Origin: an uncultured Methanobacteriaceae archaeon
GTDB lineage: Archaea > Methanobacteriota > Methanobacteria > Methanobacteriales > Methanobacteriaceae
Assembly (NCBI GenBank): GCA_947259185.1
Contig: CAMYKT010000020.1
Coordinates: 1,007-33,006 of the forward strand
Direction of reading: 5' to 3'
DNA: 32,000 bases
The position numbers and the translations under genes are program-made. A model generated the notes under the pieces. It searched no databases and was not told the DNA's origin. It was given only the letters and a program-made list of their open reading frames with translations. The number at the start of each line of letters is the position of its first letter. Position 1 is the first letter of the stretch. This document shows, one piece after another, positions 5,187 through 32,000 of this stretch.

Positions 5187-5903
5187 TCATCCTGATTTAT
5201 TTCTACTTTTTATATTTGCTATGGCTTTTTTAAGAGCAATCTCAAATTCATAAGACTCTCCTTTTGAACTATTCAATGCTTCTTCCAGATAGGCAATGGT
5301 GTTCTTATCACCAATTTTTCCCAGGGCATGGGTAGCATTTACCCGGACAAGATAACTATCATCCTGCAGGGATCTTAAAAGTGATTTTATGGCCACATCA
5401 TCACCGATTTTACCCAGAGAAGTTACAGTACAGGCTCGAAGAAGAAAATCATCTTCACCCAGGATTTCACTCAGATGTTCAGATGCTTTTATATCTCCCA
5501 GATTTCCTAGTGCCCCTACCATTTCACATTTAACATTTAAGGAGCCATCTTTTAATGCTTTAATTATGGGAATAACGGCTCTCTTATCACCAATAGCTCC
5601 TAATGCCAGAGCAGCATTTTCACGTACATGCCAGTATTCATCATTTAATAATTTAATTAATGCCGGGACTGCTTCCGGATTTCCAATTCTCCCTAAAGAT
5701 AGTGCGGCTGCTTTACGTATAGGCCAGTAGTCATCATCCAGACAATTGATTAAATCATCCACGGAATTATCAGCACGAATATCCCCCAGTATATAAGCCA
5801 CCTTTTCACGTATTTTTTTATCTGCACTGGTTTTCAAGGTAGTTATAAGGCCGGCAGTGTCCTGGTATTTTTTCATTTTTTCTAAATCATTCCGGGAAAT
5901 CAT
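5187..5903 (-). CDS. HEAT-repeat (PBS-lyase HEAT-like) protein
   Basis: 238 aa with six to seven repeats of about 31 aa, of the form xxVRxxAAxALGxIGDxxAVxxLIxxLxD. Confidence 0.8.
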   Translation of the reverse strand: MISRNDLEKMKKYQDTAGLITTLKTSADKKIREKVAYILGDIRADNSVDDLINCLDDDYWPIRKAAALSLGRIGNPEAVPALIKLLNDEYWHVRENAALALGAIGDKRAVIPIIKALKDGSLNVKCEMVGALGNLGDIKASEHLSEILGEDDFLLRACTVTSLGKIGDDVAIKSLLRSLQDDSYLVRVNATHALGKIGDKNTIAYLEEALNSSKGESYEFEIALKKAIANIKSRNKSG

Positions 5904-8671: not shown

Positions 8672-9799
8672 CTAGAAACTCATTTCATGGAATTTTATTT
8701 TAAATTCAGTGGGGTCTTTACGGTTAACGGTAAGCTGACCATTAATTTGTTCAGTAAGACTATTTACCAGTTGCAGGCCCAACGATTTAGTATTTTCTAT
8801 ATCCAACCCTTCGGGTATGCCAATACCATTATCCGATACCTTTAAGATAAAATAGTCATCCTGGGGGTAAAAACCTATTTTTATTTTTCCATTTCTTCTG
8901 GTGGGGAAGGCGTATTTCATACTGTTGGTTATTAGTTCATTTACTATTAATCCCAAAGGTATGGAGGTGTTAATATCCAGCATTACGTGTTCTATGTTTA
9001 GTTCTAATTTTACTTTACTGGGGTCGGGTACGATGGAGTGGTATAGTTCTCCAGAAAAGGTGCGAATATATTCTCCAAAGTCTATTCTTTTTAGATCAGT
9101 GGAGCGGTATAATTTTTCATGGATGAGTGCCATAGATTTAGCCCTGTTTTGGCTTTCCCTGAAAACAGCCAGTGCTTCCTTGTCTTTAATATAACGGGAT
9201 TGTAGACTCAGCAGGCTAGAGATAACCATTAAATTATTTTTCACCCGATGATGAATTTCCTTTAAAAGCATTTCCTTTTCTTCCAGGGCCTTTTCCAGTT
9301 GTATATTCTTTTTTACCAGTTTTCTTTTGGTATTGGTCAGTTCGTTATTAAGCAGGCTTAGTTCATCATACTGGGCATCAGAAGCTTTTAAATCATTTTC
9401 ATACCGGGCCAACTCTTTCATAAGATCCCTTAAAACATTGTTCTGCTCACTATTTATGTGGTATATTTCTTCCCAGAACTTCTCAATATCTTCCTGGGAA
9501 TTAACTCCATAAATCAGCAGATCATTATCCATTAAAAAACCTGAAAAATGCATAATTTCTATTTTTTTATCTGGGGAAAAATTTATTTCCCAATTAAAAG
9601 TAGCATGTTCTTCTTTTATTTCTTCTATAAAATTATAAGCTTTTTTTTTACTACCCTCATCCACAGAATCAATGAATGAATTCCCTATATGGAAAAAGTC
9701 ACTTAATTGTAATCCATCGTGGATTATGTCCTTTATTTTACCAGTGGGTGTGCAGGATAATGCTATTCCTTTCACCTGAGGGGTGTTATAATCTTCCAT
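8672..9799 (-). CDS. Soluble sensor histidine kinase (HisKA_2-type H-box plus HATPase_c) with a PAS-like N-terminal domain and a coiled-coil linker
   Basis: 375 aa. H-box [20 protein letters not shown] (9230-9259), N-box [16 protein letters not shown]-boxes SDNGIGIP and SLGLQLV. No transmembrane segment. Its stop codon directly abuts the rfcL stop. Confidence 0.85.
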
Positions 9800-9822
9800 A
9801 TTAAATCCCTGTCATGAGTTCA

Positions 9823-10233
9823 TTATTCGGATTTTTTTAACCATTCTTTCTGCCATTCAATCATCCAATCAATATAATGGGTTATCTCTGAGACATATTC
9901 CTCCGGCAAAGCCTCCCTAATTTGTCCACGGTAAATCTCAAGCCGTATGAGAATATGCTCTAAGGCCACCCCATCATGTGGTAGGCGATTACAGGCCCAG
10001 CTTAGTTGATCTTCCAGTATGGATACTTCCCCCAATAACATTGCCGTTTCTAACATCCGGGTGGTAAATTCCATTCCACTGCTTAGTAATTCCCGGGCAT
10101 GGTCCCCATGTTGTACAACCTCATCTGAACGTTCCAGAGAAATATTCACCGTATTTTTAATTATATGTGGTGAATGTTCCTTAAAGGACTTCAATGCTTC
10201 TGAGGAAACTGGAGGAAATTCTTCTTGATTCAT
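9823..10233 (-). CDS. Hypothetical 136-aa His-rich helical protein, encoded between the B12-binding protein and the kinase
   Basis: The ORF has short gaps to both neighbours on the same strand (49 nt and 23 nt). I recognised no family motif. Seven His residues and a predicted all-helical composition. Confidence 0.6.
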   Translation of the reverse strand: MNQEEFPPVSSEALKSFKEHSPHIIKNTVNISLERSDEVVQHGDHARELLSSGMEFTTRMLETAMLLGEVSILEDQLSWACNRLPHDGVALEHILIRLEIYRGQIREALPEEYVSEITHYIDWMIEWQKEWLKKSE

Positions 10234-10282
10234 TATAATGCCTCTTTTATGAAATTATCTAAAATCCATATAATGTCTCTTT

Positions 10283-10957
10283 TTATGAAATTAATTCATT
10301 GGCCAATTGGACTGCTTCCAGAGCATTGGAGGCACTTGCATCAGCACCAACTTTTTTCCATAAGTCGGGTGATATGGAAAAGGGTCTACCCCCTACCATA
10401 ATTTTAAATCGGGATCTCAAGGGGAGTGAATTGATTTTATCAACTAATTCTTTTACAGCCGGTATATTAAAATGTATAGATGCAGATATGGCTACAATAT
10501 CTGGATCTAAATTAGATATAGTATCTAAAATACTTTCTAATGGAGTGTTAGCCCCTAAATAATAGGAATCCCATCCCTCTAATTCAAATATATCCGCAAC
10601 CATCCTTAATCCAATTTCATGCATCTCTCCAGCCACACAGGTAGCCAGTAACTTGTAACCCTTTTTCTGTGACTTGAAAATAAGAGGATATAGTTCAGAC
10701 ATTATCTGCTGGGTGGAGGCAGAGCAGTAATGCTCCTGGGCCACATTGATGATGTTGTTTTGCCAGAGTCTTCCCACCTCATGCTGGCTGGATTCAAAAA
10801 CTTTTATATAAATATCTTTTATAGGGACACCCTCATCTAAAGAGGTATGGATCATTTCACTGGCACTATATCGATCTAAATTTAAAAGAGCATCCCGGTA
10901 ATTCCGGGCAAGTTCAATTAATTCTCCTGATTCTTTTTCAAACTCACTTAAAACCAT
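10283..10957 (-). CDS. Stand-alone cobalamin-binding protein, CarH/AerR-like (helical cap plus B12-binding Rossmann domain, no DNA-binding domain)
   Basis: The cap motif W-x9-E-H (WQNNIINVAQEH) lies at 10730-10765. The lower-ligand motif E-x-H-x-x-G (GEMHEIG) lies at 10610-10627, followed by LGANTP and MVGG. I prefer ATG 10957 (AAGGTGG sits 8 nt upstream) over the track's GTG at 10969, which falls inside that Shine-Dalgarno sequence. Confidence 0.8.
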   Translation of the reverse strand: MVLSEFEKESGELIELARNYRDALLNLDRYSASEMIHTSLDEGVPIKDIYIKVFESSQHEVGRLWQNNIINVAQEHYCSASTQQIMSELYPLIFKSQKKGYKLLATCVAGEMHEIGLRMVADIFELEGWDSYYLGANTPLESILDTISNLDPDIVAISASIHFNIPAVKELVDKINSLPLRSRFKIMVGGRPFSISPDLWKKVGADASASNALEAVQLANELIS

Positions 10958-11111
10958 ATTCCAAACCACCTTCTTAAACTGGCAATGATTTTCTCATAAA
11001 AAGATTTTTATTAATATAACATTATTTTATTTGTTTATTTAAATATTCATTTTCCCGATTTTATTTGAAAGCATTTTAGCCAGGTAAAAGATAATTAAAC
11101 AGGGGATATTT

Positions 11112-11810
11112 TTAATTTTCAGGAGATTTTTTAGTAATAAATTGGCTGGATTTTAAAATATTTTCCCTCACCTGAGGCACCACACTCTCTAAAAATAATA
11201 AAAATTCATGGGATAATTCTTCACCATCAACTGGACCGGCTTCATTTTCTGGATTTAACCAGTCCTCCAGCCACTTTTCAGGAATATTTAGAAGGGGATA
11301 AATTAAACGCACCTTACCCCTTTTAATTTCTGAACTTTGCAATTCTATCTTTTTTCCGGTAAAAATTTGTGCTAAAACACCCTCCACTTCCCCATCCAGG
11401 GTTAAGGGAATAACCAGGGAGTCAAAATCATAATCTAAGTTTTCGTCCATATCTTCCAGTTTTAAATTCTTTTTTATGATTTGTATTCCATATTTACGGG
11501 TGTAGGGTTCTAAAATAATATATAATGCTTTATTTTTCAGGGTTGAATCGGAATTTATCATTACTTTTTCCTGGGGACGGAGAGATTCCCCCAGTATCCG
11601 GGAAGAACGTGCACATATTTTCTGGAATAGGCTGGATCTGATTACCTCCCCGGAAGGATAGTTTTTTAAAAATAATTCTTCCTTTTTACGGGAAAACCGG
11701 GAAAACCGTAGATTGTTAATATAAAGCTGGGGGTAAACTACACTTACAAAACGGGTATCCACCCCTATTCTTTTTAAAAACACCAGTATATCTTTTTTTT
11801 CAGGCATCAT
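11112..11810 (-). CDS. Hypothetical protein, possibly a divergent PP-loop (N-type ATP pyrophosphatase) fold with a degenerate SGGxDS motif
   Basis: 232 aa. VMINSDSTLKNKALYIIL occupies the position where PP-loop proteins have SGGxDS. DSLVIPLTLDGEVEGVLAQIFTG and VRLIYPLLNIPEKWLEDW resemble the GHxxDDxxET and IRPL blocks of the TilS/TtcA families. The similarity is weak and judged by eye only. Confidence 0.4.
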   Translation of the reverse strand: MMPEKKDILVFLKRIGVDTRFVSVVYPQLYINNLRFSRFSRKKEELFLKNYPSGEVIRSSLFQKICARSSRILGESLRPQEKVMINSDSTLKNKALYIILEPYTRKYGIQIIKKNLKLEDMDENLDYDFDSLVIPLTLDGEVEGVLAQIFTGKKIELQSSEIKRGKVRLIYPLLNIPEKWLEDWLNPENEAGPVDGEELSHEFLLFLESVVPQVRENILKSSQFITKKSPEN

Positions 11811-12019: not shown

Positions 12020-12946
12020 ATGTTTAAAATTTTTGGCCAAAAAAAGGATGAAAAAAAGGATATTTTAGAAATAGTACTAAAAGAAGAGGTGGACTGTGTA
12101 GGGGACTTCACCTACAATTTCTACTGGCAGCACCAGGGAGAAAAACTGGATCCTGATGAAAAGATCCCGGGTAATGATTACTCCTTCCGGGATGTGGTAG
12201 AACACCTTAAAGCCAAAAAAACCGTTAAAATTAAGGGCAATGTGGGCCACCGTTTATGTTCCAGCATGGGAGTGGATATTAAATATTTCGGGGGTAGTGG
12301 CCAGGATATAGAAGTGGGAACGGTGATAGTGGATGGAAATGTGGATAGCCGGATGGGTATCAGCATGGTCCAGGGAACCATCTACATTAAAGGAGAGCTT
12401 AAAACCCCTGTTGGTAATCTCCTGGAGCTGGAATCAGATAAAAAAGGTTACCGTAAATTCAAATCCATAACAGATATTATCAAAAATGGTTTAAAAGGGG
12501 AAAAATTTATAGGGGCCCGGTTATCCGGCAAGCAGCTGGTAATTAATGATGGCCTGGTGAAAGATACGGTTGGGGCCCGTCTGGATGAAGATGCTGAAAT
12601 TGTAATGGAAGGGGATGTTGATTTATCCACCGGAATACTGATGCGGCAGGGACGGGTTATAATAAATGGCAATGCTGGAAAAAACACTGGAGCACTTCTA
12701 AATGGAGGTACAGTGGTCATAAATGGGAATTGTGATGATTTTACAGCTATTGAGGCGATAAAAGGATTAATAATTGTTAATGGTGATGCTGGAAAATTTT
12801 TAGGGGCTCAAAAGAAAAATGGAAAAATATTAGCTAAAAAGGGGAGTCCCATTCCCCCTACCACCAAAAAAAAGCTGGATGAAACTGATAAGAAACTTTT
12901 ATTGCAGATGGGTTATAATCCTCACCACTTCCAGGCATTTGAATAA
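12020..12946 (+). CDS. GXGXG-motif beta-helix protein (FwdC / glutamate synthase domain-3-like)
   Basis: 308 aa with repeated turns: IKGNVGHRLCSSMG, VIVDGNVDSRMGISMVQGTIYIKGE, VIINGNAGKNTGALLNGGTVVINGNCDDF, IIVNGDAGKFLGA. Confidence 0.75.
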   Translation: MFKIFGQKKDEKKDILEIVLKEEVDCVGDFTYNFYWQHQGEKLDPDEKIPGNDYSFRDVVEHLKAKKTVKIKGNVGHRLCSSMGVDIKYFGGSGQDIEVGTVIVDGNVDSRMGISMVQGTIYIKGELKTPVGNLLELESDKKGYRKFKSITDIIKNGLKGEKFIGARLSGKQLVINDGLVKDTVGARLDEDAEIVMEGDVDLSTGILMRQGRVIINGNAGKNTGALLNGGTVVINGNCDDFTAIEAIKGLIIVNGDAGKFLGAQKKNGKILAKKGSPIPPTTKKKLDETDKKLLLQMGYNPHHFQAFE

Positions 12947-18785: not shown

Positions 18786-19994
18786 CTAATTGGGTACTAA
18801 TTCATAGACTTCCGCATAAATCTGTGTATTTCCTGCTGCTCCTGTGGTCCACATAACGATTAGCAGGGGGTATTCTCTATTATTATTCACCTTTACTCCG
18901 GTGGCAGGATCCACTCCAAAGGCTATACAGTGGAATGACCAGTTTAAGCCAATTGGTAGAGGCACTCCGGCAGAAGTCACTGCGCCCCTTAAGGCCCGGG
19001 CTGGGGGACAGGTCCCATGGGAAGCAAATCCACCTGGTGCTTCAGGATCCCTTACTCCCACAAATCCACCTGACTTTTTACCAGAAGCCATATTTTCAGG
19101 AGGTACTATGGTCCCGTTCCACCTATTGGCAAATTCTCGAGCATTATGGGCCCGGGAATAATCATCGTACTCGGGATAAGACCCTAAATAACTAACAGAT
19201 CCGGATACTTTCTGGGGAGTGTAGTCATCCATATAGGCCATAACCGGGGCACCTTCTGGATAATCTTTAACATAATCCAGCACAGATTTCCCGAAATAAA
19301 CTTCAATTTGGGAGGGAGGTACTGTATTTCTACCATCACTGAAATTGGTGAGAGCATAATCCAGTACAATTTTATCTCCTATCTGGGCCTTATCATACCA
19401 TTTTTTGACTTGTTCCCCAGAAATGTACTGATTAGGGATGGTATCATTACTGATATCTTCCCCACCAACCACCCGCAGGGTCTGGTTATTCTCACTGATT
19501 TCTAAACCGTCTTTAGTTTTATATCCATAGACATAGGGGTTTTTAAATCCCCAAATAAAATTATCTGGAGGGCTAACTGTTAATTTTCCAGCATTTACCA
19601 TTAGCATTCCTGGTCCTTCATAACCGGTGGCAATTCCATACCGGGAAATACTACCTCCGGTAAGATGCACAATAGGGGTAGGGATACTACCGGTTAATAA
19701 CGACTCCATTAAATCCATAATACGGTAATCCCGGGCAAATTCAATCAGGTAACGGGGGTGGGTTATTAAGGGAACCCTCCTTATTTTACTATCATCCACC
19801 ACATCAGTTCCCGGTAATACCGTATCACCTGGTGTTAAACCGGTTATTTCCTCTGCATTTTGAGCAGGATATACTCCTTCCAGGTAAACTCCCAGGGGGG
19901 TGCTTATAATACCTAAAAATATCAACACTACCAGTATTTTAAATGCCGAGTTCTCCCAGTATTTTTTTAGAATATTTAACTCCTCCTTCTCCAA
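18786..19994 (-). CDS. Membrane-anchored extracytoplasmic protein of unknown function, with a Cys/His-containing VanW-like C-terminal region
   Basis: 402 aa. Single N-terminal transmembrane segment (FKILVVLIFLGIISTPLGVYL). C-terminus GGFASHGTCPPARALRGAVTSAGVPLPIGLNWSFHCIAFGVDPATGVKVNNNREYPLLI (18855-19034). TTG start at 19994, with a GGAGGAG just downstream, so the exact start is uncertain. It overlaps the end of the upstream ligase gene. Confidence 0.7.
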   Translation of the reverse strand: MEKEELNILKKYWENSAFKILVVLIFLGIISTPLGVYLEGVYPAQNAEEITGLTPGDTVLPGTDVVDDSKIRRVPLITHPRYLIEFARDYRIMDLMESLLTGSIPTPIVHLTGGSISRYGIATGYEGPGMLMVNAGKLTVSPPDNFIWGFKNPYVYGYKTKDGLEISENNQTLRVVGGEDISNDTIPNQYISGEQVKKWYDKAQIGDKIVLDYALTNFSDGRNTVPPSQIEVYFGKSVLDYVKDYPEGAPVMAYMDDYTPQKVSGSVSYLGSYPEYDDYSRAHNAREFANRWNGTIVPPENMASGKKSGGFVGVRDPEAPGGFASHGTCPPARALRGAVTSAGVPLPIGLNWSFHCIAFGVDPATGVKVNNNREYPLLIVMWTTGAAGNTQIYAEVYELVPN

Positions 19995-22900
19995 TTACTA
20001 ATATGATATCATTATCTTTAACTAATTCCAGTGCTTTTTCCAGGGCCTCCTGTACCTGATTTTTACTGGCACCCAGAGTTCCTTTTTTTATATTCTCGGC
20101 ACTGGATTTGGTTTCCACAATCTCTTTATTGATATACTTAGATGATTTAAGGGCGGCATAGGAAGCAGGTATCACCACATCTGCATAGTTAAGGATTTTT
20201 GCAATATCCCCATCACCCTGGCTGCCACTTTCTGAGGAAATAGTGTTTACCACGATTAGTTGAGAATCATCATCTTTTTTACTTAAAATTCTTTGTATAA
20301 CTGCTTTTACACCGGCCGGATTGTGAGCATAATCAATAATTAAAGAAGGATGGTCACTTATTTTTTCAAACCTACCTTCCACACCCGCAAAATCCTGAAG
20401 CCCGGTCACTATATCTTCAAATTTAATACCCATAGCCCAGGCACCTGCAGCAGCAGCCAGGGCATTGTAAATATTATATATGCCTTCTATTTTTAATTTA
20501 ACCATAGCCTGTTCTGATTTAATCCGGAGTAACATACTGTTTTCTGTTACCTGACGTCCGGATACATCCAGTGGTGGTTTTTTAAATCCACATATACATT
20601 TATATTTGCCTAAATGCCCTAAATAATGTTTTTCATACTTGAGGAGTGCTTCACACAGGGGACATTCCCGTCCTTCAGAAAAGGTATTAATTCTGGTATT
20701 AATATTTTCAATACCATAGAATATTATATTTTCCGGGTTTTGGGAATAGGCAAAACTGGCTACCAGAGGGTCATCTGCATTGAGTATTAATATATCGGCC
20801 ACGTCAGTTATTTCTTTTTTACACTGTACATACAGGTTAAAATCATCATCTTCTTTTAAATGGTCCCTGGAAATATTGGTTACCAGTCCCAGATCAACTT
20901 CACAGTTTAAAGCAGAGTTTTTTATTTCATCCGCGTTTCCAAAGGTTCCTATTTCCACCACCGCCATGTCCCCTTTAAGACGAGTTTGCAAAGCAGGAAT
21001 AAGTTCAGTATTACCCTGGATAGGCATATGGTGTTCAGGAACATGGTAATCTGCTTTATAGAGAATATGTTTTAGTATCTGGGTGGTGGTGGTTTTACCA
21101 TTGGTACCGGTTATCCCTATTACTGGTTTATCCACCTTACAGATGGCCATCACTTCATCCACACCGATTATATCCGCAGAACTATTCTGGGTAATCAGAT
21201 CCCATACCTTCTGGTTTTTTTCCAGTCCCGGGGTGAGTACAATGGTTTGGGCTTTTTTAAGTACCTCCGGGGAGTGGCCTCCCAGGTCCATTTTTATGTC
21301 TTCGCGGGTAAAAACATCCTTCAAATAGGTATCCGGGCTCACATCAGAAACTGTTACATCCGCCCCGTTGTGCTTCAAAACACGGGCTAATAGACTTCCT
21401 ACAGTGCCACAACCACCTATGACCACAATATTGGAGTTATAATCCTGATAATAATCAATGGCCTTTTTGATATCATTCTTAACATTTTCATAGGCATTTA
21501 CCACTCCCGGCCCCAGGTGTAATATGGTATCACCGGGTGCTGAAAGTTCCAGAGCCATTAAAATGGCGGTGGTCACATCTTCCACCCCATAGCTTTCCAC
21601 TGCACCTGCAGCAGAGATTACTTCCTCCACCGCTTTCCAGTCAACTACCTCGGTGGTTTCATTTTTAGCACTGGAAATAATCACATCTGCCTTTTTATCT
21701 AAAATCCCACCAATTTTTGATTTATCTCTTATGGTAAGGGTATCAGGGTTATCCAGACTTATTATAAGTCTTCCCGGAACAGATAAGCCTTCTAATAATT
21801 TTTCCATACTTTCCGGGTTATGGGCAGCATCCATAAATATATTAACCTCATTAAGTTGACCTATTTTCTCAAAACGACCTTTAACCCCATGAAATGACTC
21901 AATTCTTTCTTTCAAATATTCCAGACCAAAACCCAGAACCAGGCCAGTGCCCACAGCAGCCAGCGCATTCTCAATATTACAGCTACCCGGTATTTTCAAG
22001 TTTATATCCGTTTTAAATGGTCCCACCATTTTCCGGGAGAAGTTACCACAACTGCAATTGATATGGCCACAATTTTCACATACGCTGCTAGGGAGGACCG
22101 TGCTCACCAGGTTGAAACTGGAACCATCCAGCCCTTTAAGCTGAATATCTTCTGCATAGATATTTAGATCCACTTCTAAAGGACCATAAGTCTTATCTTC
22201 AAAATTGATGATTTGAGGAGCCCCTAAACCATAGTAAATACTTTTCTTATTACTTTTTTTACCCTGCTGGACCACCACCGGGTCATCACCATTTAAAATC
22301 AATACCCCCTGGGGGGATATTAAATGGGATAGGGAAAAGTTACGATTGACATAATCTTCATAGCTGGTGAATTCATCCATATGATCCGGGGTGAGGTTGG
22401 TTACCACCCCGGCACATAGTTCCAATCCATCAGCCATCCTTATAGTTCCATGGGGCAGTTCGAATACAGCCAGCTCTTTATCACTGGTTTTTTCATTAAC
22501 CACCAGTTCTATGAGTCCTTCAATAACCAGAGAATCCTGCAGGGATGAAAAAGTAATGGTTTCCAGCTCACCTTCCAGTACATGGTTTATCATATTAGTG
22601 GTGGTGGTTTTACCATCGGTCCCGCCAATACCCACCATAGGTATCTCTATTAAAGAATTCAAAATCTCTCCGATATGGGAAGTACTTATCAGGTCTATTT
22701 TTTTATTTTCTCTGGTCTTTTCAATGAATATACGTATATCTGCCTGAGGAGGTATATTAGGGGAAATAAATATGGCATCTGCCCATAAAACGCTGTCAAA
22801 TATATGGGTTCCCAACTCAAAAACAACCCCCTTTTCTTCCAGCTTTTTAATTTTTTTCCGGGCTTTTTTAGGAAGGGAGTTATAATCCTGCATATCTGAA

Positions 22901-23022
22901 ACCCGTACCTGGTTACCCAAATAGTTTAATAAATTAGCAGCAGGTCTTCCTGCATTTCCTGCTCCCACTACCAGTATCTTTTTACCATTTATCAATGTAT
23001 CAACCTTTAGAGAGTGATTCAA
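19939..23022 (-). CDS. Tandem-fused double Mur-ligase-family protein (two complete MurD-N/MurT-like modules); putative pseudomurein peptide ligase
   Basis: 1027 aa. Module 1 (aa 1-~527): VVGAGNAGRPAA, P-loop GIGGTDGKTTT, Cys4 CENCGHINCSC (22048-22080), GRFE, DAAHNP. Module 2 (aa ~528-1027): VIGGCGTVGSLLA, GITGTNGKTTT, CPLC-x18-CIC (20590-20664), GRFE, DYAHNP. An alternative TTG start at 22995 gives (M)INGKKILVVGAG, just after the upstream stop. Confidence 0.85.
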   Translation of the reverse strand: MNHSLKVDTLINGKKILVVGAGNAGRPAANLLNYLGNQVRVSDMQDYNSLPKKARKKIKKLEEKGVVFELGTHIFDSVLWADAIFISPNIPPQADIRIFIEKTRENKKIDLISTSHIGEILNSLIEIPMVGIGGTDGKTTTTNMINHVLEGELETITFSSLQDSLVIEGLIELVVNEKTSDKELAVFELPHGTIRMADGLELCAGVVTNLTPDHMDEFTSYEDYVNRNFSLSHLISPQGVLILNGDDPVVVQQGKKSNKKSIYYGLGAPQIINFEDKTYGPLEVDLNIYAEDIQLKGLDGSSFNLVSTVLPSSVCENCGHINCSCGNFSRKMVGPFKTDINLKIPGSCNIENALAAVGTGLVLGFGLEYLKERIESFHGVKGRFEKIGQLNEVNIFMDAAHNPESMEKLLEGLSVPGRLIISLDNPDTLTIRDKSKIGGILDKKADVIISSAKNETTEVVDWKAVEEVISAAGAVESYGVEDVTTAILMALELSAPGDTILHLGPGVVNAYENVKNDIKKAIDYYQDYNSNIVVIGGCGTVGSLLARVLKHNGADVTVSDVSPDTYLKDVFTREDIKMDLGGHSPEVLKKAQTIVLTPGLEKNQKVWDLITQNSSADIIGVDEVMAICKVDKPVIGITGTNGKTTTTQILKHILYKADYHVPEHHMPIQGNTELIPALQTRLKGDMAVVEIGTFGNADEIKNSALNCEVDLGLVTNISRDHLKEDDDFNLYVQCKKEITDVADILILNADDPLVASFAYSQNPENIIFYGIENINTRINTFSEGRECPLCEALLKYEKHYLGHLGKYKCICGFKKPPLDVSGRQVTENSMLLRIKSEQAMVKLKIEGIYNIYNALAAAAGAWAMGIKFEDIVTGLQDFAGVEGRFEKISDHPSLIIDYAHNPAGVKAVIQRILSKKDDDSQLIVVNTISSESGSQGDGDIAKILNYADVVIPASYAALKSSKYINKEIVETKSSAENIKKGTLGASKNQVQEALEKALELVKDNDIILVIGEGGVKYSKKILGELGI

Positions 23023-24217
23023 TATAATTTTGCATTTCTTTTATTTTTTCTTGACCATTTCCGCCTATAAAAATATTTTTAAATGATAGGTATGGTTTTA
23101 TAATCTCCGGGAGCTGATCAAATTCCTTTATGATTTTGACTTCACCTTCAAAACCCAGTGATATTAATTTCTTTACTGCCAGGGAAGTGCTGTCCTCCAG
23201 ACCAGGGAATAAAATTATGGTCTCGGGATTGGATTTACATACTTCCTCTAAAATTTTAAAACGCCATTTTTCCTCTGCCCGGGGGGTTCCCACTACCATC
23301 ACCGGAAACTCAGCTTCCTTTAAAACCTCCTGGATGGCCCCGGTGTTATCAGTTTTCCCCACCACAATGTGGCTGCCCTGAATATTAAACGATTTTATAC
23401 GCCCTTCCACTGGACTAAAATTCTCCAGTGAATCTTTAATAATATCCTCTCTTATTTTAAGAACATTAGCCACAGTTTCTGCTGCTCCTGCATTAATTTT
23501 ATTAAATTCTCCAAAAAGAAGAAGTTGGTAGGTGGTCTTATCATAAAAAGAGTACTTTAAAAGATTTTTTGATATCTCCACCAGATACTTATCCTGTTTA
23601 TTCAGGAGACTATTTTTTGATTTTAAAAATTTTCCCATGTTCCGGGCATAGTTTTCCAGGGACTGATGATGGTTCAGGTGGTCCGGCCCTATATTGGTGG
23701 CCACCACCAGGTCGAATTCAAAACAATGCTCTGCATATTCCAGGGTCATATCACAGACTTCCACAATCATAACCTGGTATTTATTAGAATCAGCTTCTAA
23801 AATTAATTCACTGTAACCATCAAATCCACCCCCAGAATTACCTCCAATTAAAACCTCCATACCGGCCTTTTCCAGTATGCTTTTTATCATTAAAGAGGTG
23901 GTGGTTTTACCATTGGTTCCTGTCACTCCAATGGTGAAAAGGGAGCGATGGGTATTTATTTTATCAGATAATAGCATCTTAGATTTTTTAATTTTTTCTC
24001 CTAAAGGAGTTTTCCATAATCCCGGACTAAGGGCCACTGCATCCGCAGAGAATATTTTCTCCTCATTATGGAATCCCAGATCCAGGTCTACAACATCTTC
24101 TTCCAGGATAATGCTTTTATTAAGATCAGTGGCATAAACCTGGTGACCTCTATTTTTAAGAGACCTGATAGCTTTTTTACCTTCAACTCCCAATCCAATT
24201 ACTGCAACTTTCATCAA
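23000..24217 (-). CDS. Mur-ligase-family protein (MurD-like N-domain); putative pseudomurein peptide ligase
   Basis: 405 aa. KVAVIGLGVEGKKA Rossmann domain, P-loop GVTGTNGKTTTS, ATNIGPDHL, and a short C-terminal domain with no Cys4 ribbon. Confidence 0.8.
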   Translation of the reverse strand: MMKVAVIGLGVEGKKAIRSLKNRGHQVYATDLNKSIILEEDVVDLDLGFHNEEKIFSADAVALSPGLWKTPLGEKIKKSKMLLSDKINTHRSLFTIGVTGTNGKTTTSLMIKSILEKAGMEVLIGGNSGGGFDGYSELILEADSNKYQVMIVEVCDMTLEYAEHCFEFDLVVATNIGPDHLNHHQSLENYARNMGKFLKSKNSLLNKQDKYLVEISKNLLKYSFYDKTTYQLLLFGEFNKINAGAAETVANVLKIREDIIKDSLENFSPVEGRIKSFNIQGSHIVVGKTDNTGAIQEVLKEAEFPVMVVGTPRAEEKWRFKILEEVCKSNPETIILFPGLEDSTSLAVKKLISLGFEGEVKIIKEFDQLPEIIKPYLSFKNIFIGGNGQEKIKEMQNYIESLSKG

Positions 24218-29273: not shown

Positions 29274-30152
29274 ATGGATCCAGAAATCTTTGAGATGGAA
29301 AATGCAGATATTGCCTGGTGTCCTGGATGCGGGGACTTCCTTATATTAAAAGCATTAAAACAGGCCCTGGCCGATTTAGAGTTAGGTCCTGAAAAACTGG
29401 TCTTAGTATCAGGTATTGGGCAGGCAGGAAAATTACCTCACTACCTGAAATCCAATATATTCAATGGCTTACATGGCAGATCTCTATCACCAGCCACCGC
29501 TATTAAAGCATCAAATCCGGATATGGTGGTTATCGATGTTTCCGGGGATGGCTGTATGTATGGTGAAGGGGGTAACCACTTCATGCACACCATACGCCGC
29601 AATCCAGACATCACCAACATAGTACTAAACAACATGGTGTATGGTTTAACCAAGGGTCAGGCATCACCCACCAGCCAGAAAGACTTTGAAACCCCATTTC
29701 AGGTAGATGGAGTTTTTGAAGAACCATTCAATCCATTGGCCGTGGCCATAACTTTAGGTGCTTCTTTTGTGGCCAGGACATTTGCAGGAGATATACCTCA
29801 TATGGTGGATGTCCTGAAAAAAGCCATACAACACAAGGGATATTCTCTGGTGGATATATTTCAACCCTGTGTTACCTTCAACAAGGTGAATACTTTCAGC
29901 TGGTTTAAAGAGAACACTTACCTCATGGATGATACCCACAATCCCTACCTTAAAATAGAGGCCCTGAAAAGAGCCCTGGAAGGAAATGATGGTGAAGGTA
30001 AATTCCCCCTGGGTATATTTTATATTAAAATGGGCCAATCCACCTTTGAAGAAAATCTATCAGTTTATAAAAAAGATAAGACCCCCTTATTCTGGAGGAA
30101 AGTGGATAAAAATAAATTAAAGACATTAATTGATTCTAAAAGAAGCCTTTAA
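29274..30152 (+). CDS. 2-oxoacid:ferredoxin oxidoreductase beta (TPP-binding) subunit, with Gln at the usual third Fe-S cysteine position
   Basis: 292 aa. WCPGCGDF (C16, C19), SGIGQAG (Q50, where KorB-type proteins have GIGC), TPP motif [10 protein letters not shown]-x-NN (C94), and QPCVTF (C199). Confidence 0.9.
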
Positions 30153-30213
30153 TCTAAGTATTTACCCGGTAAGTATATATTTACATGATTTAATTATTTT
30201 AACAGGTAATACC

Positions 30214-30630
30214 ATGTTTGAAGAAGAAATGGACAACCGGATATATAAATTATTTATAAGCCAGTTTAAAGAGGAAGAAGAAGAGAATATACTTTTTAAA
30301 AATAGGCTGGACCATGCCTCTGATTTCCAGTGGGAAAACTATTCCCTCCCCCAGGATGCACCCCCTGAAATAAAAAATAAGATAAAGGAAGTTGATGTGG
30401 TGGTGGTGCTCTCAGGACTCTACAGTCACTATCCTGATTACATTGAACTGGTAGTAAATACTGCCCATGAACAAAATAAACCCCTGGTTATCATCCGACC
30501 CTATGGGGTGGAAAATATTCCTCTGGAACTGGAAAAAAAGGCTCAGGAAGTGGTGGGCTGGAATGCTCCCTGTATTGTGGATGCTATAAAAAGTGTTTTA
30601 GGTGGTGGGGAGGGTAGTTGTGATATATAA
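30214..30630 (+). CDS. TIR-like domain protein (MTH538 / DUF1863 family)
   Basis: 138 aa from ATG 30214; the track's upstream start at 30130 overlaps the oxidoreductase gene. YKLFIS, VDVVVVLSGLYSHYPDYIELVVNTA, KPLVIIRPYG, and EVVGWNAPCIVDAI follow the DUF1863 pattern as I recall it. Confidence 0.65.
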   Translation: MFEEEMDNRIYKLFISQFKEEEEENILFKNRLDHASDFQWENYSLPQDAPPEIKNKIKEVDVVVVLSGLYSHYPDYIELVVNTAHEQNKPLVIIRPYGVENIPLELEKKAQEVVGWNAPCIVDAIKSVLGGGEGSCDI

Positions 30631-30638
30631 AACCCAAT

Positions 30639-32000
30639 CTAAGCTTCATTTAGACTAATCCGGGAGTCACCTTCCTCTTTTATTATCCGGATAATATTAT
30701 CTGCTGCTTCTTCCAGATCATTATCATGGGTGACGATAATCATCTGGGGCAGGACCGATAATCTTTTCAGTATATCGATTAATTCCTGGCGACGGTAACT
30801 ATCCAGGTGAATGGTGGGCTCATCCAGCATAATAAGCTCCAGTTTACCTCCGGATAGCACCCGGGTAATGGCCAGACGCAAGGCCAATGCCACCGCAATT
30901 TTCTCCCCACCACTAATCATATCCAGGGTGGTCTTACCCCCGGGACCATATACCTCCACATCATAGTCCTCATCCAGGGAAATATCCGAATACTCAAAAT
31001 TGAACCTATCAAAAAACTTACGGGTCTCCTCCTGGATAAGAGGTCGGGAACGGTTCCGCAAATCCTTTTGCACTCCATCCTTACCAAATAGCTTCCGAAT
31101 ATAATCCAGAACTTTAATAAAATCTTTAAGATTATCTAAATCTTTTTCAACATCCTTTAAAGAATCCAGATCTCTTTGTAGATCCTCTATAGCAGAAATG
31201 GTCATGCCCTGGATTCCCTCATTTTTACTTTTCTGGCTATTTAATTGGATGAAGGATTCCTTTTTTTGTTCATAATCCTGGAAAATCTTTTGATGTGCTA
31301 CTTCATCATAGTCGATTTTAATAAGACTACTGTGGAGCGATTCCTTATTTTTCCTATTTTCTTCTAAATCCAGTACCTTTTTTTGCAGTTTTTTCTCTAT
31401 ACTATTTTTTTGAGATACTCTGCCCTTTAACTGATTCAGATTATTCTTGAATTCTTCCAGCTTATCTATCTCTTCCTGGAGTATATCACTATCCAGAGTG
31501 GAATAATCATCCTTAAATTGCTTGAAATAATCAATTTCCATAGAGGATAATAATTCCTTTATACGGGAGTCCTCTTTAGCTATTTTTTCTACCATCTCAT
31601 TTTTTTCTTTTTCCAGAGTCTCCACCGGGGCCAGGTTTTCCAGGGAATGCTTGGCCTTTAAATAATCGTCTTTATCATTTTCAATTTCTTTTAGCCGGCT
31701 TTTTTTGGATTTTATGCTGGATTCTATTTCTTTAAGGGTGATATTTTGGATTTTAAGATCCTCCAGCTTCATCTCCAGATTACTAAGTTTGTGGGAGGAG
31801 GTATTTTTTGCTTTGATTTTTTCCTGGAGGATATCCATGTTAATTTTCTGGAAGGAATTTTTACGGTTTTTTAACTCTTCCTTTTCTTTATTCAACTTCT
31901 TTAAAGATTTTTCCAGATCCAAAATCTCTTTTTTATTAGAAGCGATATCCTGCTGGTAGAGGGTTACCAGTTCTGTTTTTTTGGATTTACTGATATCTGA
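30639..32000 (-). CDS. rad50: Rad50 (SMC-family DNA double-strand-break repair ATPase), C-terminal ~453 codons; the gene continues past the right window edge
   Basis: A long coiled coil, then the ABC signature MISGGEKIAVALALRLAI, Walker B LELIMLDEPTIHLD, and H-loop IIVTHD. My own translation shows the frame stays open upstream of the track's TTG at 31922 (SDISKSKKTELVTLYQQDIASNKKEI...) through base 32000. Confidence 0.9.
   Translation of the reverse strand, partial: SDISKSKKTELVTLYQQDIASNKKEILDLEKSLKKLNKEKEELKNRKNSFQKINMDILQEKIKAKNTSSHKLSNLEMKLEDLKIQNITLKEIESSIKSKKSRLKEIENDKDDYLKAKHSLENLAPVETLEKEKNEMVEKIAKEDSRIKELLSSMEIDYFKQFKDDYSTLDSDILQEEIDKLEEFKNNLNQLKGRVSQKNSIEKKLQKKVLDLEENRKNKESLHSSLIKIDYDEVAHQKIFQDYEQKKESFIQLNSQKSKNEGIQGMTISAIEDLQRDLDSLKDVEKDLDNLKDFIKVLDYIRKLFGKDGVQKDLRNRSRPLIQEETRKFFDRFNFEYSDISLDEDYDVEVYGPGGKTTLDMISGGEKIAVALALRLAITRVLSGGKLELIMLDEPTIHLDSYRRQELIDILKRLSVLPQMIIVTHDNDLEEAADNIIRIIKEEGDSRISLNEA

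What the first reader, a model, noticed from the sequence alone, without database searches (positions are those of the whole stretch)
8672..10969. Operon encoding a CarH-type stand-alone B12-binding module, a 136-aa helical protein and a HisKA_2 kinase: candidate cobalamin/light-gated signalling system in a methanogen
Three co-directional minus-strand genes are separated by only 49 and 23 nt. The first product (about 224-228 aa) is a cobalamin-binding module with no DNA-binding or enzymatic domain. Its Rossmann domain has the lower-axial-ligand motif E-x-H-x-x-G (GEMHEIG, 10610-10627). Its helical cap carries an exact W-x9-E-H (WQNNIINVAQEH, 10730-10765). That motif lines the upper-ligand pocket of AdoCbl photoreceptors (CarH/LitR, and the AerR-type short cobalamin-binding proteins) and is not a feature of methyltransferase corrinoid proteins. 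The second gene encodes a His-rich all-helical protein with no motif I recognise; it could be an adaptor or a second sensor. The third is a soluble kinase with a PAS-like N-terminus, a long coiled coil and a HisKA_2 H-box (HHRVKNNL). No response regulator, MerR domain or methyltransferase gene lies nearby. A split B12-sensor plus kinase arrangement in a strictly anaerobic, cobamide-rich archaeon would be a signalling system I do not know to be described. It could sense light, cobamide availability or redox state.
Basis: partly seen in the sequence, partly recalled or inferred. Interest (0 to 1): 0.8.

Follow-up and report, generated by a model that had tools for sequence, protein, structure and literature searches.

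The report
Split B12–globin light sensor with kinase
A methanogen carries a three-gene operon for a vitamin-B12-binding sensor protein, a phycobiliprotein-like globin partner and a histidine kinase; this is the split form of a predicted and partly characterised bacterial photoreceptor type ("photocobilin"/photoglobin systems), so it is a new member of a known kind, not a new signalling system.

Summary
Three co-directional minus-strand genes lie 49 and 23 nt apart. They encode a stand-alone B12-binding protein with W-x9-EH and E-x-H-x-x-G, a 136-aa helical protein, and a soluble HisKA_2 kinase.

The unrecognised middle protein is a photoglobin, a phycobiliprotein-like globin. Its AF2 model (pLDDT 91) matches only phycobiliproteins. 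Its family profile matches the globin domains of B12 fusions (hhalign 97.7 %, E 2.4e-12). It is 46 % identical to the C-terminal half of single-chain B12-globin proteins.

The B12 protein's best solved relatives are the photocobilins SasPcob and AbPcob. It carries all four published "light-responsive" signature elements.

The same gene order recurs in six further loci from Methanobacteriaceae, Methanofastidiosum and a metagenome. Fused versions are also followed by a kinase. All these kinases share an unannotated N-terminal domain and an LNNEL…KKN helix, whichever catalytic core follows.

Operons of stand-alone photoglobin, B12-binding and two-component genes were described computationally in 2021, archaea included. 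Fused photocobilins were characterised in 2024.

One twist remains. This globin subfamily has Gly (92/94) where the bilin-binding Asp sits, and lacks the Cys/Ser. Light response is inferred, not shown.

The parts
10283..10957 (-). Stand-alone cobalamin-binding sensor protein (224 aa from ATG 10957; 228 aa if the GTG at 10969 is used). It has a four-helix cap plus a Rossmann domain.
   Evidence: Pfam gives B12-binding_2 plus B12-binding. The best solved relatives are photocobilins 8J2W/X/Y and CtMerR 8JBS, E about 2e-19. The ribosome-binding site and the product on record support ATG 10957.
10730..10774 (-). GxxW and W-x9-EH (G66-W69, E79-H80 in 228-aa numbering): pocket for the upper axial ligand (adenosyl group).
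   Evidence: These residues align with SasPcob W61/E71/H72 (PMC10979010). The motif is present in 119 of 120 closest homologues. It is absent from the methyltransferase-type corrinoid protein 4JGI in the same alignment.
10610..10630 (-). G-E-M-H-E-I-G (G114-G120). H117 is the predicted lower axial cobalt ligand (base-off/His-on).
   Evidence: The motif aligns with SasPcob GEWH, whose H108 ligates cobalt (PMC10979010). It matches the GxxH signature element (PMC11796333).
10541..10555 (-). G-A-N-T-P (G139-P143): the GxxxP element of the light-responsive cobalamin-binding-domain signature.
   Evidence: Motif position; signature defined in PMC11796333.
9823..10233 (-). Stand-alone photoglobin (136 aa), a five-helix phycobiliprotein-like globin. 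It is the second half of a split photocobilin.
   Evidence: The AF2 model has pLDDT 90.9. The top 50 Foldseek PDB matches are all phycobiliproteins, TM 0.66-0.76. It is 46 % identical (E 2e-41) to residues 233-354 of the fused B12-globin protein P0064. The family profile matches AbPcob and SasPcob globin domains and allophycocyanin beta. hhalign to photoglobin domains of fusions gives 97.7 %, E 2.4e-12.
10075..10077 (-). G53 codon of the globin, at the position of the bilin-coordinating Asp of phycobiliproteins and photoglobins.
   Evidence: Three independent alignments place G53 opposite allophycocyanin-beta Asp (the D of the printed CLRD stretch, the CxRD motif), the only His in the aligned pocket segment of AbPcob (probably the one said to replace SasPcob D270), and the invariant Asp of K[CS]x[RQ]D. 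Gly is found in 92 of 94 family members.
9970..9999 (-). W-A-C-N-R-L-P-H-D-G (W79-G88): the most conserved motif of the globin subfamily, at the junction of helices 3 and 4.
   Evidence: Conservation is W79 93/94, R83 81/94, L84 88/94, P85 76/94 and G88 81/94. W79 aligns with the AbPcob pocket Trp listed in PMC10979010.
8672..9799 (-). Soluble sensor histidine kinase (375 aa).
   Evidence: Pfam gives HisKA_2 at residues 181-255 and HATPase_c at 280-370. The best solved relative is the LOV-histidine kinase EL346 (4R3A), E 7.5e-16. The N, G1 and G2 boxes are present. No transmembrane segment is predicted.
9455..9778 (-). Kinase N-terminal domain (about residues 8-115). It has no family assignment and is the proposed docking or input domain for the B12-globin pair.
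   Evidence: The domain is conserved in kinases of all eight related loci examined (L001-L008), whether the core is HisKA_2 or HisKA and whether the sensor is split or fused. It has no Pfam or PDB sequence match.
9305..9352 (-). [quoted passage not shown]
   Evidence: L150, N151, N152, E153, L154, R159, L161, K163, K164 and N165 are invariant in 7 of 7 aligned kinases. The same motif is visible in the two kinases beside fused sensors.
9248..9250 (-). H184 codon: the predicted phospho-accepting histidine of the HisKA_2 H-box ([10 protein letters not shown]).
   Evidence: H184 aligns with the His of EVQHRVKNHL in EL346. Assigning that His as the phosphoacceptor rests on my own knowledge of EL346.

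Best explanation
The operon encodes a photocobilin-type cobamide sensor split into two polypeptides, coupled to a dedicated histidine kinase.

Shown:
- The first protein is a CarH/photocobilin-class cobalamin-binding module.
- The second is a photoglobin homologous to the globin half of single-chain B12-globin proteins.
- The three genes travel together in several archaeal lineages and in metagenomic loci.
- The kinases share a private N-terminal domain and linker motif.

Inferred:
1. The B12 protein binds an adenosyl-cobamide base-off/His-on through H117. The adenosyl group sits under W69/E79/H80.
2. The globin docks on the B12 protein, as the globin domain does in SasPcob, and covers the corrin edge.
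3. UV-to-green light cleaves the Co-C bond and changes the shape or oligomeric state of the B12-globin complex.
4. The kinase N-terminal domain reads this change and passes it through the LNNEL...KKN helix to the DHp domain. This alters autophosphorylation at H184.
5. The phosphate goes to a response regulator encoded elsewhere.
6. The globin has Gly instead of the bilin-binding Asp and no Cys/Ser, and the host is expected to be haem-poor and anoxic. The globin therefore probably acts here as a structural cap or transducer, or binds a non-canonical ligand, and not as a canonical biliverdin chromophore domain.
For: B12 module. Pfam finds both domains. The closest solved sequences are photocobilins and CtMerR at E about 2e-19, against CarH at about 3e-8, with residue-for-residue alignment of W/E/H/H. 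[quoted passage not shown] The signature is kept in 119 of 120 homologues.

Globin. The model is confident and matches only phycobiliproteins. Fusion proteins P0064, P0092, P0139, P0200, P0239 and P0198 join the two halves in one chain. Profile matches reach AbPcob and SasPcob globin domains and the photoglobin domains of 12 fusions.

Linkage. The order B12 gene, globin gene, kinase gene is found in L001, L002, L003, L004, L005 and L006 and in the P0119 contig. Fused sensors are followed by a kinase in the P0092 contig, L007 and L008.

Kinase. The shared N-terminal domain and linker occur across HisKA_2 and HisKA cores. The catalytic boxes are intact.

Published precedent. Photocobilins respond to light through AdoCbl and regulate partner enzymes (PMC10979010). 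Stand-alone photoglobin, B12 and two-component operons were predicted to be light sensors (PMC8717448).
Against: - No experiment exists on any member of this split subfamily. Cobamide binding, light response and kinase control are all inferred.
- Several hosts are strict anaerobes, some from dark habitats. One B12-protein homologue (63 % identical) is annotated from Methanobacterium subterraneum, which I know as a deep-groundwater isolate. Its gene neighbourhood was not examined.
- The canonical chromophore residues of the globin are missing, so its role is unclear.
- The His that follows the Trp in CarH and forms the bis-His light state is Gln here, as in SasPcob.
- No response regulator lies in the 32-kb window.
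- The fold of the kinase N-terminal domain is unknown; the AF2 single-sequence model has pLDDT 49.9.
- Physical contact among the three proteins was not modelled.
Confidence: 0.55

Rival explanations
1. The hardware is the same, but the signal is not light. The B12-globin pair reports cobamide availability, the identity of the upper ligand (adenosyl, methyl or hydroxo), or the redox or oxygen state of the bound cobalt. It gates the kinase accordingly, in the way that AerR-type short cobalamin-binding proteins act through ligand state.
For: - The hosts are strict anaerobes rich in cobamides, some from dark habitats. A B12-protein homologue is annotated from M. subterraneum; the habitat is my own knowledge.
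- The globin lacks the canonical bilin residues, which removes the second chromophore expected of a photoreceptor.
- In L001 the triad follows a stressosome-like gene set: PAS-STAS, STAS, a switch kinase and a PP2C phosphatase. This suggests a general stress input.
Against: - The adenosyl-pocket signature that separates light-responsive cobalamin-binding domains from enzyme and methyltransferase domains is complete and almost invariant in the family.
- The closest characterised relatives are photoreceptors.
- Adenosylcobamide bound in this pocket is intrinsically photolabile (PMC10979010).
Confidence: 0.28
2. It is a true two-chromophore photocobilin. The globin binds a linear tetrapyrrole (biliverdin or similar) non-covalently despite the Gly substitution. 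The pair then senses both green and red/far-red light.
For: - The globin fold and pocket scaffold are retained. The pocket Trp (W79) is found in 93 of 94 members.
- AbPcob also lacks the Asp yet still responds to red light with low biliverdin occupancy (PMC10979010).
- BBAG-2 globins lack CxRD, carry an RGMC motif and bind biliverdin (PMC10151467). The local sequence here is S-G-M-E, which may occupy the same position. This was not tested.
Against: - Both canonical chromophore-contact positions are replaced: Asp by Gly in 92 of 94 members, and Cys/Ser by Ile/Leu/Val.
- Position 55 is not a conserved Cys or acid.
- No haem oxygenase or bilin reductase gene lies in the window.
- Methanobacteriales lack cytochromes, and canonical haem oxygenase needs O2 (my own knowledge). 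An endogenous bilin source is therefore doubtful.
Confidence: 0.12
3. The first gene is an ordinary methyltransferase corrinoid protein (MtbC/MtmC/MtaC-like) that shuttles methyl groups, and its position next to the kinase is incidental.
For: - JGI automatic annotation calls many homologues 'methanogenic corrinoid protein MtbC1'.
- NCBIfam corrinoid-protein models give partial hits.
- The solved corrinoid proteins 3EZX, 1Y80, 4JGI and 7XCN match at E 1e-13 to 1e-18.
Against: - All NCBIfam hits are far below their cut-offs, for example 66 versus 215 bits for pyl_corrinoid and 65 versus 350 for MtbC.
- W-x9-EH is present here and absent from 4JGI in the same alignment.
- No methyltransferase gene lies in any of the eight related loci (L001-L008) or three further contigs examined. 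A globin or globin domain and a kinase are always present, except that the gene after fused P0064 has no assignment and the kinase there lies upstream.
Confidence: 0.02

Closest known systems
Photocobilins SasPcob and AbDPcob (PDB 8J2W/8J2X/8J2Y; Zhang et al. 2024, PMC10979010)
   Same: - They are the best solved sequence relatives of the B12 protein.
- They share the W/E-H/His-on residues and the Gln after the Trp.
- The domain order matches: B12 module, then phycobiliprotein-like globin.
- The globin profile reaches their globin domains (E 0.002 and 0.03).
- Both regulate a partner enzyme.
   Different: - Here the two halves are separate genes.
- The globin has Gly where SasPcob has the biliverdin-binding Asp270 (AbPcob has His there).
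- The output is a separate histidine kinase and not a fused diguanylate cyclase or a protein-protein partner.
- The host is an anaerobic archaeon.
- Nothing here has been tested experimentally.
Stand-alone photoglobin, B12-binding and two-component operons (Schneider et al. 2021, PMC8717448)
   Same: The paper describes this gene-neighbourhood theme directly. Stand-alone photoglobins are 'almost always' adjacent to B12-binding_2/B12-binding genes and to sensor kinases, in bacteria and archaea. Homology to photoglobin domains of fusions was confirmed here.
   Different: - The paper's family signature (Asp on helix 3, Cys/Ser/Thr at the distal position) is not met by this subfamily.
- The passages I read do not name Methanobacteriaceae or Methanofastidiosum; its alignment includes Methanoregula.
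- Those passages do not describe the shared kinase N-terminal domain.
BBAG-2 globins paired with B12-binding proteins in Myxococcota (Rockwell et al. 2023, PMC10151467; PMC13446030)
   Same: Both are split pairs of a phycobiliprotein-related globin gene and a B12-binding protein gene. Both globins lack the CxRD motif.
   Different: - BBAG-2 has an RGMC motif with Cys, binds biliverdin, and sits with haem oxygenase and pre-PcyA bilin reductase genes.
- Here there is no Cys, no such genes in the window, and a kinase as the third partner.
CarH/LitR and CtMerR (PDB 5C8A, 5C8D, 8JBS)
   Same: They share the four-helix cap plus Rossmann fold, W-x9-EH, a His-on lower ligand, and the GxxW/EH/GxxH/GxxxP signature.
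   Different: - There is no MerR DNA-binding domain here.
- The second His for the bis-His light state is absent (Gln instead).
- Sequence similarity is much weaker (E about 3e-8) than to photocobilins.
- The output is through a kinase and not through DNA release.
EL346 LOV-histidine kinase (PDB 4R3A) and other HisKA_2/HWE photosensory kinases
   Same: Both are soluble kinases with a HisKA_2 DHp (HRVKN H-box), HATPase_c and an N-terminal sensory domain joined by a helix. EL346 is the best solved match of the kinase core.
   Different: - In EL346 the chromophore domain (LOV) is part of the kinase chain.
- Here the chromophore module is one or two separate proteins.
- The kinase N-terminal domain here has no detectable cofactor motif and no family assignment.

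Membership tests
Light-responsive CarH-type cobalamin-binding domain (SignatureFinder signature, PMC11796333) | B12-binding_2 four-helix bundle followed by a B12-binding Rossmann domain | tested here: met
   Pfam PF02607 at residues 21-93 (E 1.3e-13) and PF02310 at residues 106-220 (E 1.7e-24).
Light-responsive CarH-type cobalamin-binding domain (SignatureFinder signature, PMC11796333) | Signature elements GxxW, EH, GxxH and GxxxP | tested here: met
   GRLW 66-69, EH 79-80, GEMH 114-117 and GANTP 139-143 in 228-aa numbering. The signature is defined.
Light-responsive CarH-type cobalamin-binding domain (SignatureFinder signature, PMC11796333) | Binds AdoCbl and undergoes light-driven Co-C cleavage with a structural change | not testable with these tools
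   This needs reconstitution and spectroscopy.
CarH/LitR transcription factors | N-terminal MerR-type DNA-binding domain | tested here: not met
   There is no MerR domain and no other additional domain. The protein is 224-228 aa and is fully covered by the two B12 domains.
CarH/LitR transcription factors | His directly after the pocket Trp (TtCarH H132), which gives the bis-His light state | tested here: not met
   The residue is Gln70. Gln occupies this position in 117 of 119 homologues, as reported for SasPcob.
Photoglobin (Schneider et al. 2021) | Globin fold related to phycobiliproteins, without their N-terminal helix pair | tested here: met
   The AF2 model has pLDDT 90.9 and five helices. 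Foldseek returns only phycobiliproteins, TM 0.66-0.76. The profile aligns to allophycocyanin-beta residues 39-159, which lie after the N-terminal hairpin.
Photoglobin (Schneider et al. 2021) | Sequence-profile homology to photoglobin domains of B12 fusion proteins | tested here: met
   hhalign gives 97.7 %, E 2.4e-12 over 119 columns. BLASTP to the fused P0064 and P0092 gives 46 % identity, E 2e-41 and 8e-36. The profile hits 8J2Y at E 0.002 and 8J2W at E 0.03.
Photoglobin (Schneider et al. 2021) | Fused to, or encoded next to, B12-binding_2/B12-binding, with two-component genes nearby | tested here: met
   This holds in the window and in six further split-triad loci plus the P0119 contig.
Photoglobin (Schneider et al. 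2021) | Conserved Asp on helix 3 and Cys/Ser/Thr at the distal ligand position (CxQD/CxRD-like motif) | tested here: not met
   The Asp position is G53, with Gly in 92 of 94 members. The Cys/Ser position is L50, occupied by Ile/Leu/Val/Met.
Photoglobin (Schneider et al. 2021) | Binds a linear tetrapyrrole | not testable with these tools
   This needs binding assays. The missing Asp argues against the canonical binding mode.
Photocobilin (Zhang et al. 2024) | B12-binding domain and biliverdin-binding globin in a single polypeptide | tested here: not met
   Here they are two genes 49 nt apart. Single-chain relatives of both halves exist: P0064, P0092, P0139, P0200, P0239 and P0198.
HisKA_2 (HWE-related) sensor histidine kinases | HisKA_2 DHp with an H-box His, plus HATPase_c with N, G1 and G2 boxes | tested here: met
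   PF07568 E 1e-30 and PF02518 E 2.7e-11. HHRVKNN is at residue 183, NELITNS at 287, DNGIGIP at 323 and SLGLQLV at 339.
HisKA_2 (HWE-related) sensor histidine kinases | A cognate response regulator encoded nearby | tested here: not met
   No Response_reg domain is found in any ORF of 100 aa or more in the window. Response regulators do occur near the triad in L002 and L006.
Methyltransferase corrinoid proteins (MtmC/MtbC/MttC/MtaC/MtgC) | Scores above family thresholds and is linked to cognate methyltransferase genes | tested here: not met
   NCBIfam scores of 25-73 bits fall far below cut-offs of 215-450 bits. No methyltransferase gene is present in any locus examined.

The most novel reading that the evidence does not exclude
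The Gly-type globins (141 clusters at 50 % identity, mostly stand-alone) may be a bilin-free branch of the photoglobins. They would have been retained as an obligatory partner of CarH-type B12 modules. Together with a private kinase input domain, which has no family assignment and may be a new domain family, they would give haem-free, strictly anaerobic methanogens a working cobamide-based light sensor or light/oxidant alarm. That would be the first photosensory two-component pathway in methanogens. It would also show that the globin half of photocobilins has a role independent of any second chromophore.
Probability: 0.25. Interest if true: 0.7.

Novelty: new member of a known kind. Interest (0 to 1): 0.42.

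Why it matters
Methanogens are damaged by light and oxygen, yet no photosensory pathway has been demonstrated in them (my own knowledge).

This operon is a compact candidate made of three soluble proteins. It occurs in cultivable species: homologues of both sensor halves come from Methanobacterium alkalithermotolerans and M. movens, and the full triad is seen in an assembly carrying the M. alkalithermotolerans B12 protein.

It also offers a natural test of what the globin half of photocobilins does when the bilin-binding residues are absent. The shared kinase N-terminal domain is a concrete handle on how B12-globin sensors talk to kinases.

For annotation, many of these B12 proteins are mislabelled 'methanogenic corrinoid protein MtbC1'. 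Their globin partners are labelled 'hypothetical'.

Tried and rejected
Searches that gave nothing useful
- Pfam, NCBIfam and single-sequence PDB searches on the 136-aa protein found nothing. Only family profiles and the structure model revealed the globin.
- PDB profile searches with the kinase N-terminal domain gave only spurious repeats from de novo designed TIM barrels.
- A Pfam scan of seven N-terminal domains gave only noise from coiled-coil families.
- The supplement of PMC10151467 holds no BBAG-2 sequences, so the comparison of RGMC with SGME is untested.
- Cluster look-ups gave no taxonomy for the wider globin family.

Structure work that failed
- The single-sequence model has pLDDT 49.9 and was not used for fold search. 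Its strand-strand-helix-helix-strand-strand-strand order is compatible with PAS, but this is not evidence.

Candidate parts of the system, considered and rejected
- The upstream ORF at 11112-11810 (232 aa, no family) is rejected. A gene of similar size and position (230 aa) occurs only in the close-synteny locus L003 (sequences not compared), and no counterpart flanks the triad in L001, L002, L004, L005 or L006.
- The HEAT_PBS ('phycobilisome lyase-like') ORF at 5187-5903 is rejected. It is separated from the operon by the two replication factor C genes, and no such gene lies within the flanks held for the other loci.

Alternative reading rejected
- The methyltransferase corrinoid-protein reading is rejected on scores, motifs and gene context.


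Full report
**1. The observation**

The three minus-strand ORFs exist as described: 10283-10969, 9823-10233 and 8672-9799. They are separated by 49 and 23 nt. The kinase stop codon directly abuts the stop codon of the convergent replication factor C large-subunit gene.

Pfam assigns B12-binding_2 (E 1.3e-13) and B12-binding (E 1.7e-24) to the first product. It assigns nothing to the second. It assigns HisKA_2 (E 1e-30) and HATPase_c (E 2.7e-11) to the third.

The quoted motifs are present. WQNNIINVAQEH lies exactly at 10730-10765. The coordinates given for GEMHEIG omit the Gly codon.

The real start of the first gene is probably ATG 10957, giving 224 aa. The GTG at 10969 lies inside a GGTGG ribosome-binding site. 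The 224-aa product is the one on record for this 33-kb contig.

All three products lack hydrophobic segments. No response regulator, MerR domain or methyltransferase was found among the window's ORFs of 100 aa or more.

The organism is a Methanobacterium close to M. alkalithermotolerans. The B12 protein is 90 % identical and the globin 81 % identical to that species' proteins. Locus L003, from an assembly carrying the M. alkalithermotolerans B12 protein, has the same triad and a matching order, size and domain make-up of the neighbouring genes (replication factor C pair, M48 peptidase).

**2. The B12 protein**

Its best solved relatives by sequence are the photocobilins SasPcob and AbPcob (8J2W/X/Y) and CtMerR (8JBS), at E about 2e-19. 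Methyltransferase corrinoid proteins follow at 1e-13 to 1e-18, and CarH at about 3e-8.

In the printed alignment, W69, E79-H80 and H117 fall on the SasPcob residues W61, E71-H72 and H108. The structure paper describes these as the adenosyl-pocket Trp, the Glu-His motif and the lower axial His (PMC10979010). The methyltransferase-type protein 4JGI lacks the Trp and the Glu-His in the same alignment.

The published signature that separates light-responsive cobalamin-binding domains from other such domains is GxxW, EH, GxxH and GxxxP (PMC11796333). It is complete here. It is kept in 119 of the 120 closest homologues.

The residue after the Trp is Gln, as reported for SasPcob. It is not the His that forms the bis-His state in CarH.

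NCBIfam corrinoid-protein models score far below their thresholds. The module is therefore a CarH/photocobilin-class sensor domain. It is not a methyl carrier, and it is not CarH itself because it has no MerR domain.

**3. The 136-aa protein**

Single-sequence searches found nothing. Three further lines of evidence identify it.

- *Profile searches.* A profile of ten orthologues matched allophycocyanin beta subunits over the whole globin core, E 3e-4.
- *Structure.* An AF2 model with pLDDT 90.9 has five helices. It matched only phycobiliproteins among the top 50 PDB hits, with TM 0.66-0.76.
- *Fusion proteins.* Among homologues of the B12 protein, 39 of the best 120 are proteins of about 355 aa with an N-terminal phycobilisome-type globin (Pfam PF00502 is precomputed for many). 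Two more, P0064 and P0092, carry a C-terminal domain 46 % identical to the 136-aa protein, E 2e-41 and 8e-36.

An exhaustive profile search found 141 clusters of this globin subfamily. Most are stand-alone proteins of about 135 aa. A few are fused on either side of a B12 module.

A 94-sequence profile reached the globin domains of AbPcob (E 0.002) and SasPcob (E 0.03). A profile-profile comparison with the globin domains of 12 fusion proteins gave 97.7 % probability and E 2.4e-12 over 119 columns.

The middle gene is therefore a photoglobin, and genes one and two are a photocobilin split into two polypeptides.

**4. A departure from the family**

Three independent alignments place the nearly invariant G53 (92 of 94 members) at the position of the bilin-coordinating Asp. 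They place L50 (Ile/Leu/Val in the family) at the Cys/Ser position. The three references are:

- the Asp of the printed CLRD stretch of allophycocyanin beta, the CxRD chromophore motif;
- the only His in the aligned pocket segment of AbPcob, probably the one the paper says replaces SasPcob D270;
- the invariant Asp of the K[CS]x[RQ]D motif of fused photoglobins.

The most conserved feature of the subfamily is instead W79-x3-R-L-P-H-D-G. W79 corresponds to a pocket Trp of AbPcob.

BBAG-2 globins also lack CxRD. They carry RGMC and bind biliverdin (PMC10151467). The local S-G-M-E here might be the same position, but I could not obtain those sequences.

No haem oxygenase or bilin reductase gene lies in the window. 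Methanobacteriales are cytochrome-free (my own knowledge). Canonical bilin binding is therefore doubtful, though not excluded.

**5. Conservation and the kinase**

The order B12 gene, globin gene, kinase gene recurs in the following places:

| Locus | Source |
|---|---|
| L001, L002 | two Methanobacteriaceae MAGs |
| L003 | assembly carrying the M. alkalithermotolerans B12 protein |
| L004 | Methanobacterium contig |
| L005 | Methanofastidiosum |
| L006 | metagenome contig |
| P0119 contig | neighbouring 139-aa gene has a Pfam Phycobilisome hit |

Fused sensors are likewise followed by a kinase in the P0092 contig, in a Methanotrichaceae MAG (L007) and in a bacterial genome (L008).

The catalytic core varies. 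It is HisKA_2 in Methanobacteriaceae and Methanotrichaceae. It is HisKA in Methanofastidiosum, L006 and L008. L002 has an added PAS array.

All nine kinases nevertheless share the same N-terminal domain of about 110 aa, followed by a helix with an invariant L-N-N-E-L-x4-R-x-L-x-K-K-N motif. This domain has no Pfam or PDB sequence match. Its fold could not be predicted reliably, so 'PAS-like' remains unverified.

Co-inheritance with B12-globin sensors across kinase families makes it the best candidate for the input or docking domain.

The kinase core looks competent. The H-box His184 aligns with the H-box His of the LOV kinase EL346, and the N, G1 and G2 boxes are present.

**6. How it most likely works**

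*Shown:* domain identities, homology to characterised photoreceptors, fusion relatives, conserved gene order, and the shared kinase domain.

*Inferred:*

1. The cobamide is bound His-on with an adenosyl upper ligand.
2. The globin docks on the B12 module as in SasPcob.
3. Light cleaves the Co-C bond and changes the complex.
4. The kinase N-terminal domain senses this and the linker helix transmits it to H184.
5. The phosphate passes to a response regulator encoded elsewhere.

*Main rival:* the same machine senses cobamide status, ligand state or redox state in the dark. This is plausible for anaerobes, some of which live without light. In L001 the triad follows a stressosome-like gene set. That echoes the STAS/SpoIIE associations reported for SasPcob.

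*Other rivals:* a two-chromophore reading with a bound bilin is weakened by the missing Asp and Cys. The methyltransferase reading is effectively excluded.

**7. Comparison with what is known, and novelty**

Schneider et al. 2021 (PMC8717448) reported three things. Stand-alone photoglobins are almost always adjacent to B12-binding genes. These loci carry two-component genes. The family occurs in archaea. They predicted a coupled light-sensing bundle.

Zhang et al. 2024 solved and characterised fused photocobilins. Rockwell et al. 2023 described split globin and B12 pairs in Myxococcota.

The window's operon is therefore a new member of a known, mostly predicted, kind. Three details are not covered by the passages I read:

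- the Gly-type pocket of this globin subfamily;
- its presence in Methanobacteriaceae and Methanofastidiosum;
- the dedicated kinase N-terminal domain.

**Verdict**

Interest is moderate. The system is an untested but readily testable candidate for light or cobamide sensing in methanogens.

Noticed in passing
window 5187-5903 (-): A 238-aa protein is built of HEAT_PBS repeats ('phycobilisome lyase HEAT-like', PF03130 E 1.5e-33; HEAT_2 E 3.9e-40). It lies 2.8 kb from a phycobiliprotein-like globin. A gene of the same length sits at the equivalent position in the close-synteny locus L003, but none lies near the triad in the other loci, so the proximity is probably coincidental. CpcE/F-type lyases attach bilins to phycobiliproteins, which makes it worth a look.
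   Followed up: partly
window 9455-9778 and 9305-9352 (-); L001-L008 kinases: The kinase N-terminal domain of about 110 aa and the invariant LNNEL-x4-R-x-L-x-KKN linker have no Pfam or PDB sequence match. They co-occur with B12-globin sensors across HisKA and HisKA_2 kinases in archaea and bacteria. This may be an undescribed domain family.
   Followed up: partly
L001 1913-5257 (+): In the Methanobacteriaceae MAG Yes71-23 the triad is directly preceded, on the same strand, by a stressosome-like set: PAS-STAS, STAS, an HATPase_c_2 switch kinase and a SpoIIE/PP2C phosphatase. A second HisKA_2 kinase follows.
   Followed up: partly
L008 3675-3986 (+): An ABM-family monooxygenase gene (PF03992, E 5e-12) lies 15 nt upstream of a fused photoglobin-B12 gene in a bacterial genome. 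Some ABM proteins degrade haem, so it might supply a linear tetrapyrrole. No such gene is present in the window.
   Followed up: no
window 30130-30630 (+) and 30639-31922 (-): A ThsB-like TIR-domain ORF (PF08937, E 1.5e-6) sits next to an SMC/SbcC-type ATPase ORF. This could be an anti-phage defence pair.
   Followed up: no
window 19939-23022 (-) and 23000-24217 (-): A 1027-aa ORF contains two tandem Mur-ligase modules and overlaps a further Mur-ligase-like ORF. This is presumably pseudomurein synthesis, consistent with a Methanobacteriales origin. The fusion is unusually long.
   Followed up: no
window 12020-12946 (+): A stand-alone 308-aa protein has GXGXG/FwdC-like repeats (TIGR03122, 75.9 bits, below the cut-off of 130.65). 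No other formylmethanofuran dehydrogenase subunits lie nearby.
   Followed up: no
window 11112-11810 (-): A 232-aa ORF lies 154 nt upstream of the B12 gene on the same strand and matches no Pfam or NCBIfam family. A 230-aa gene sits at the same position in L003 (sequences not compared).
   Followed up: partly
window 8671/8672: The kinase gene and the convergent replication factor C large-subunit gene end on adjacent bases, with zero intergenic distance. Any transcription terminators must lie inside the opposing coding sequences.
   Followed up: no
P0255 (hit): A 742-aa protein made of a unit of about 46 aa repeated roughly 11 times matched the globin profile at E 2.8e-9 over 35 columns. It looks like a translated DNA repeat and is probably a spurious hit.
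   Followed up: no
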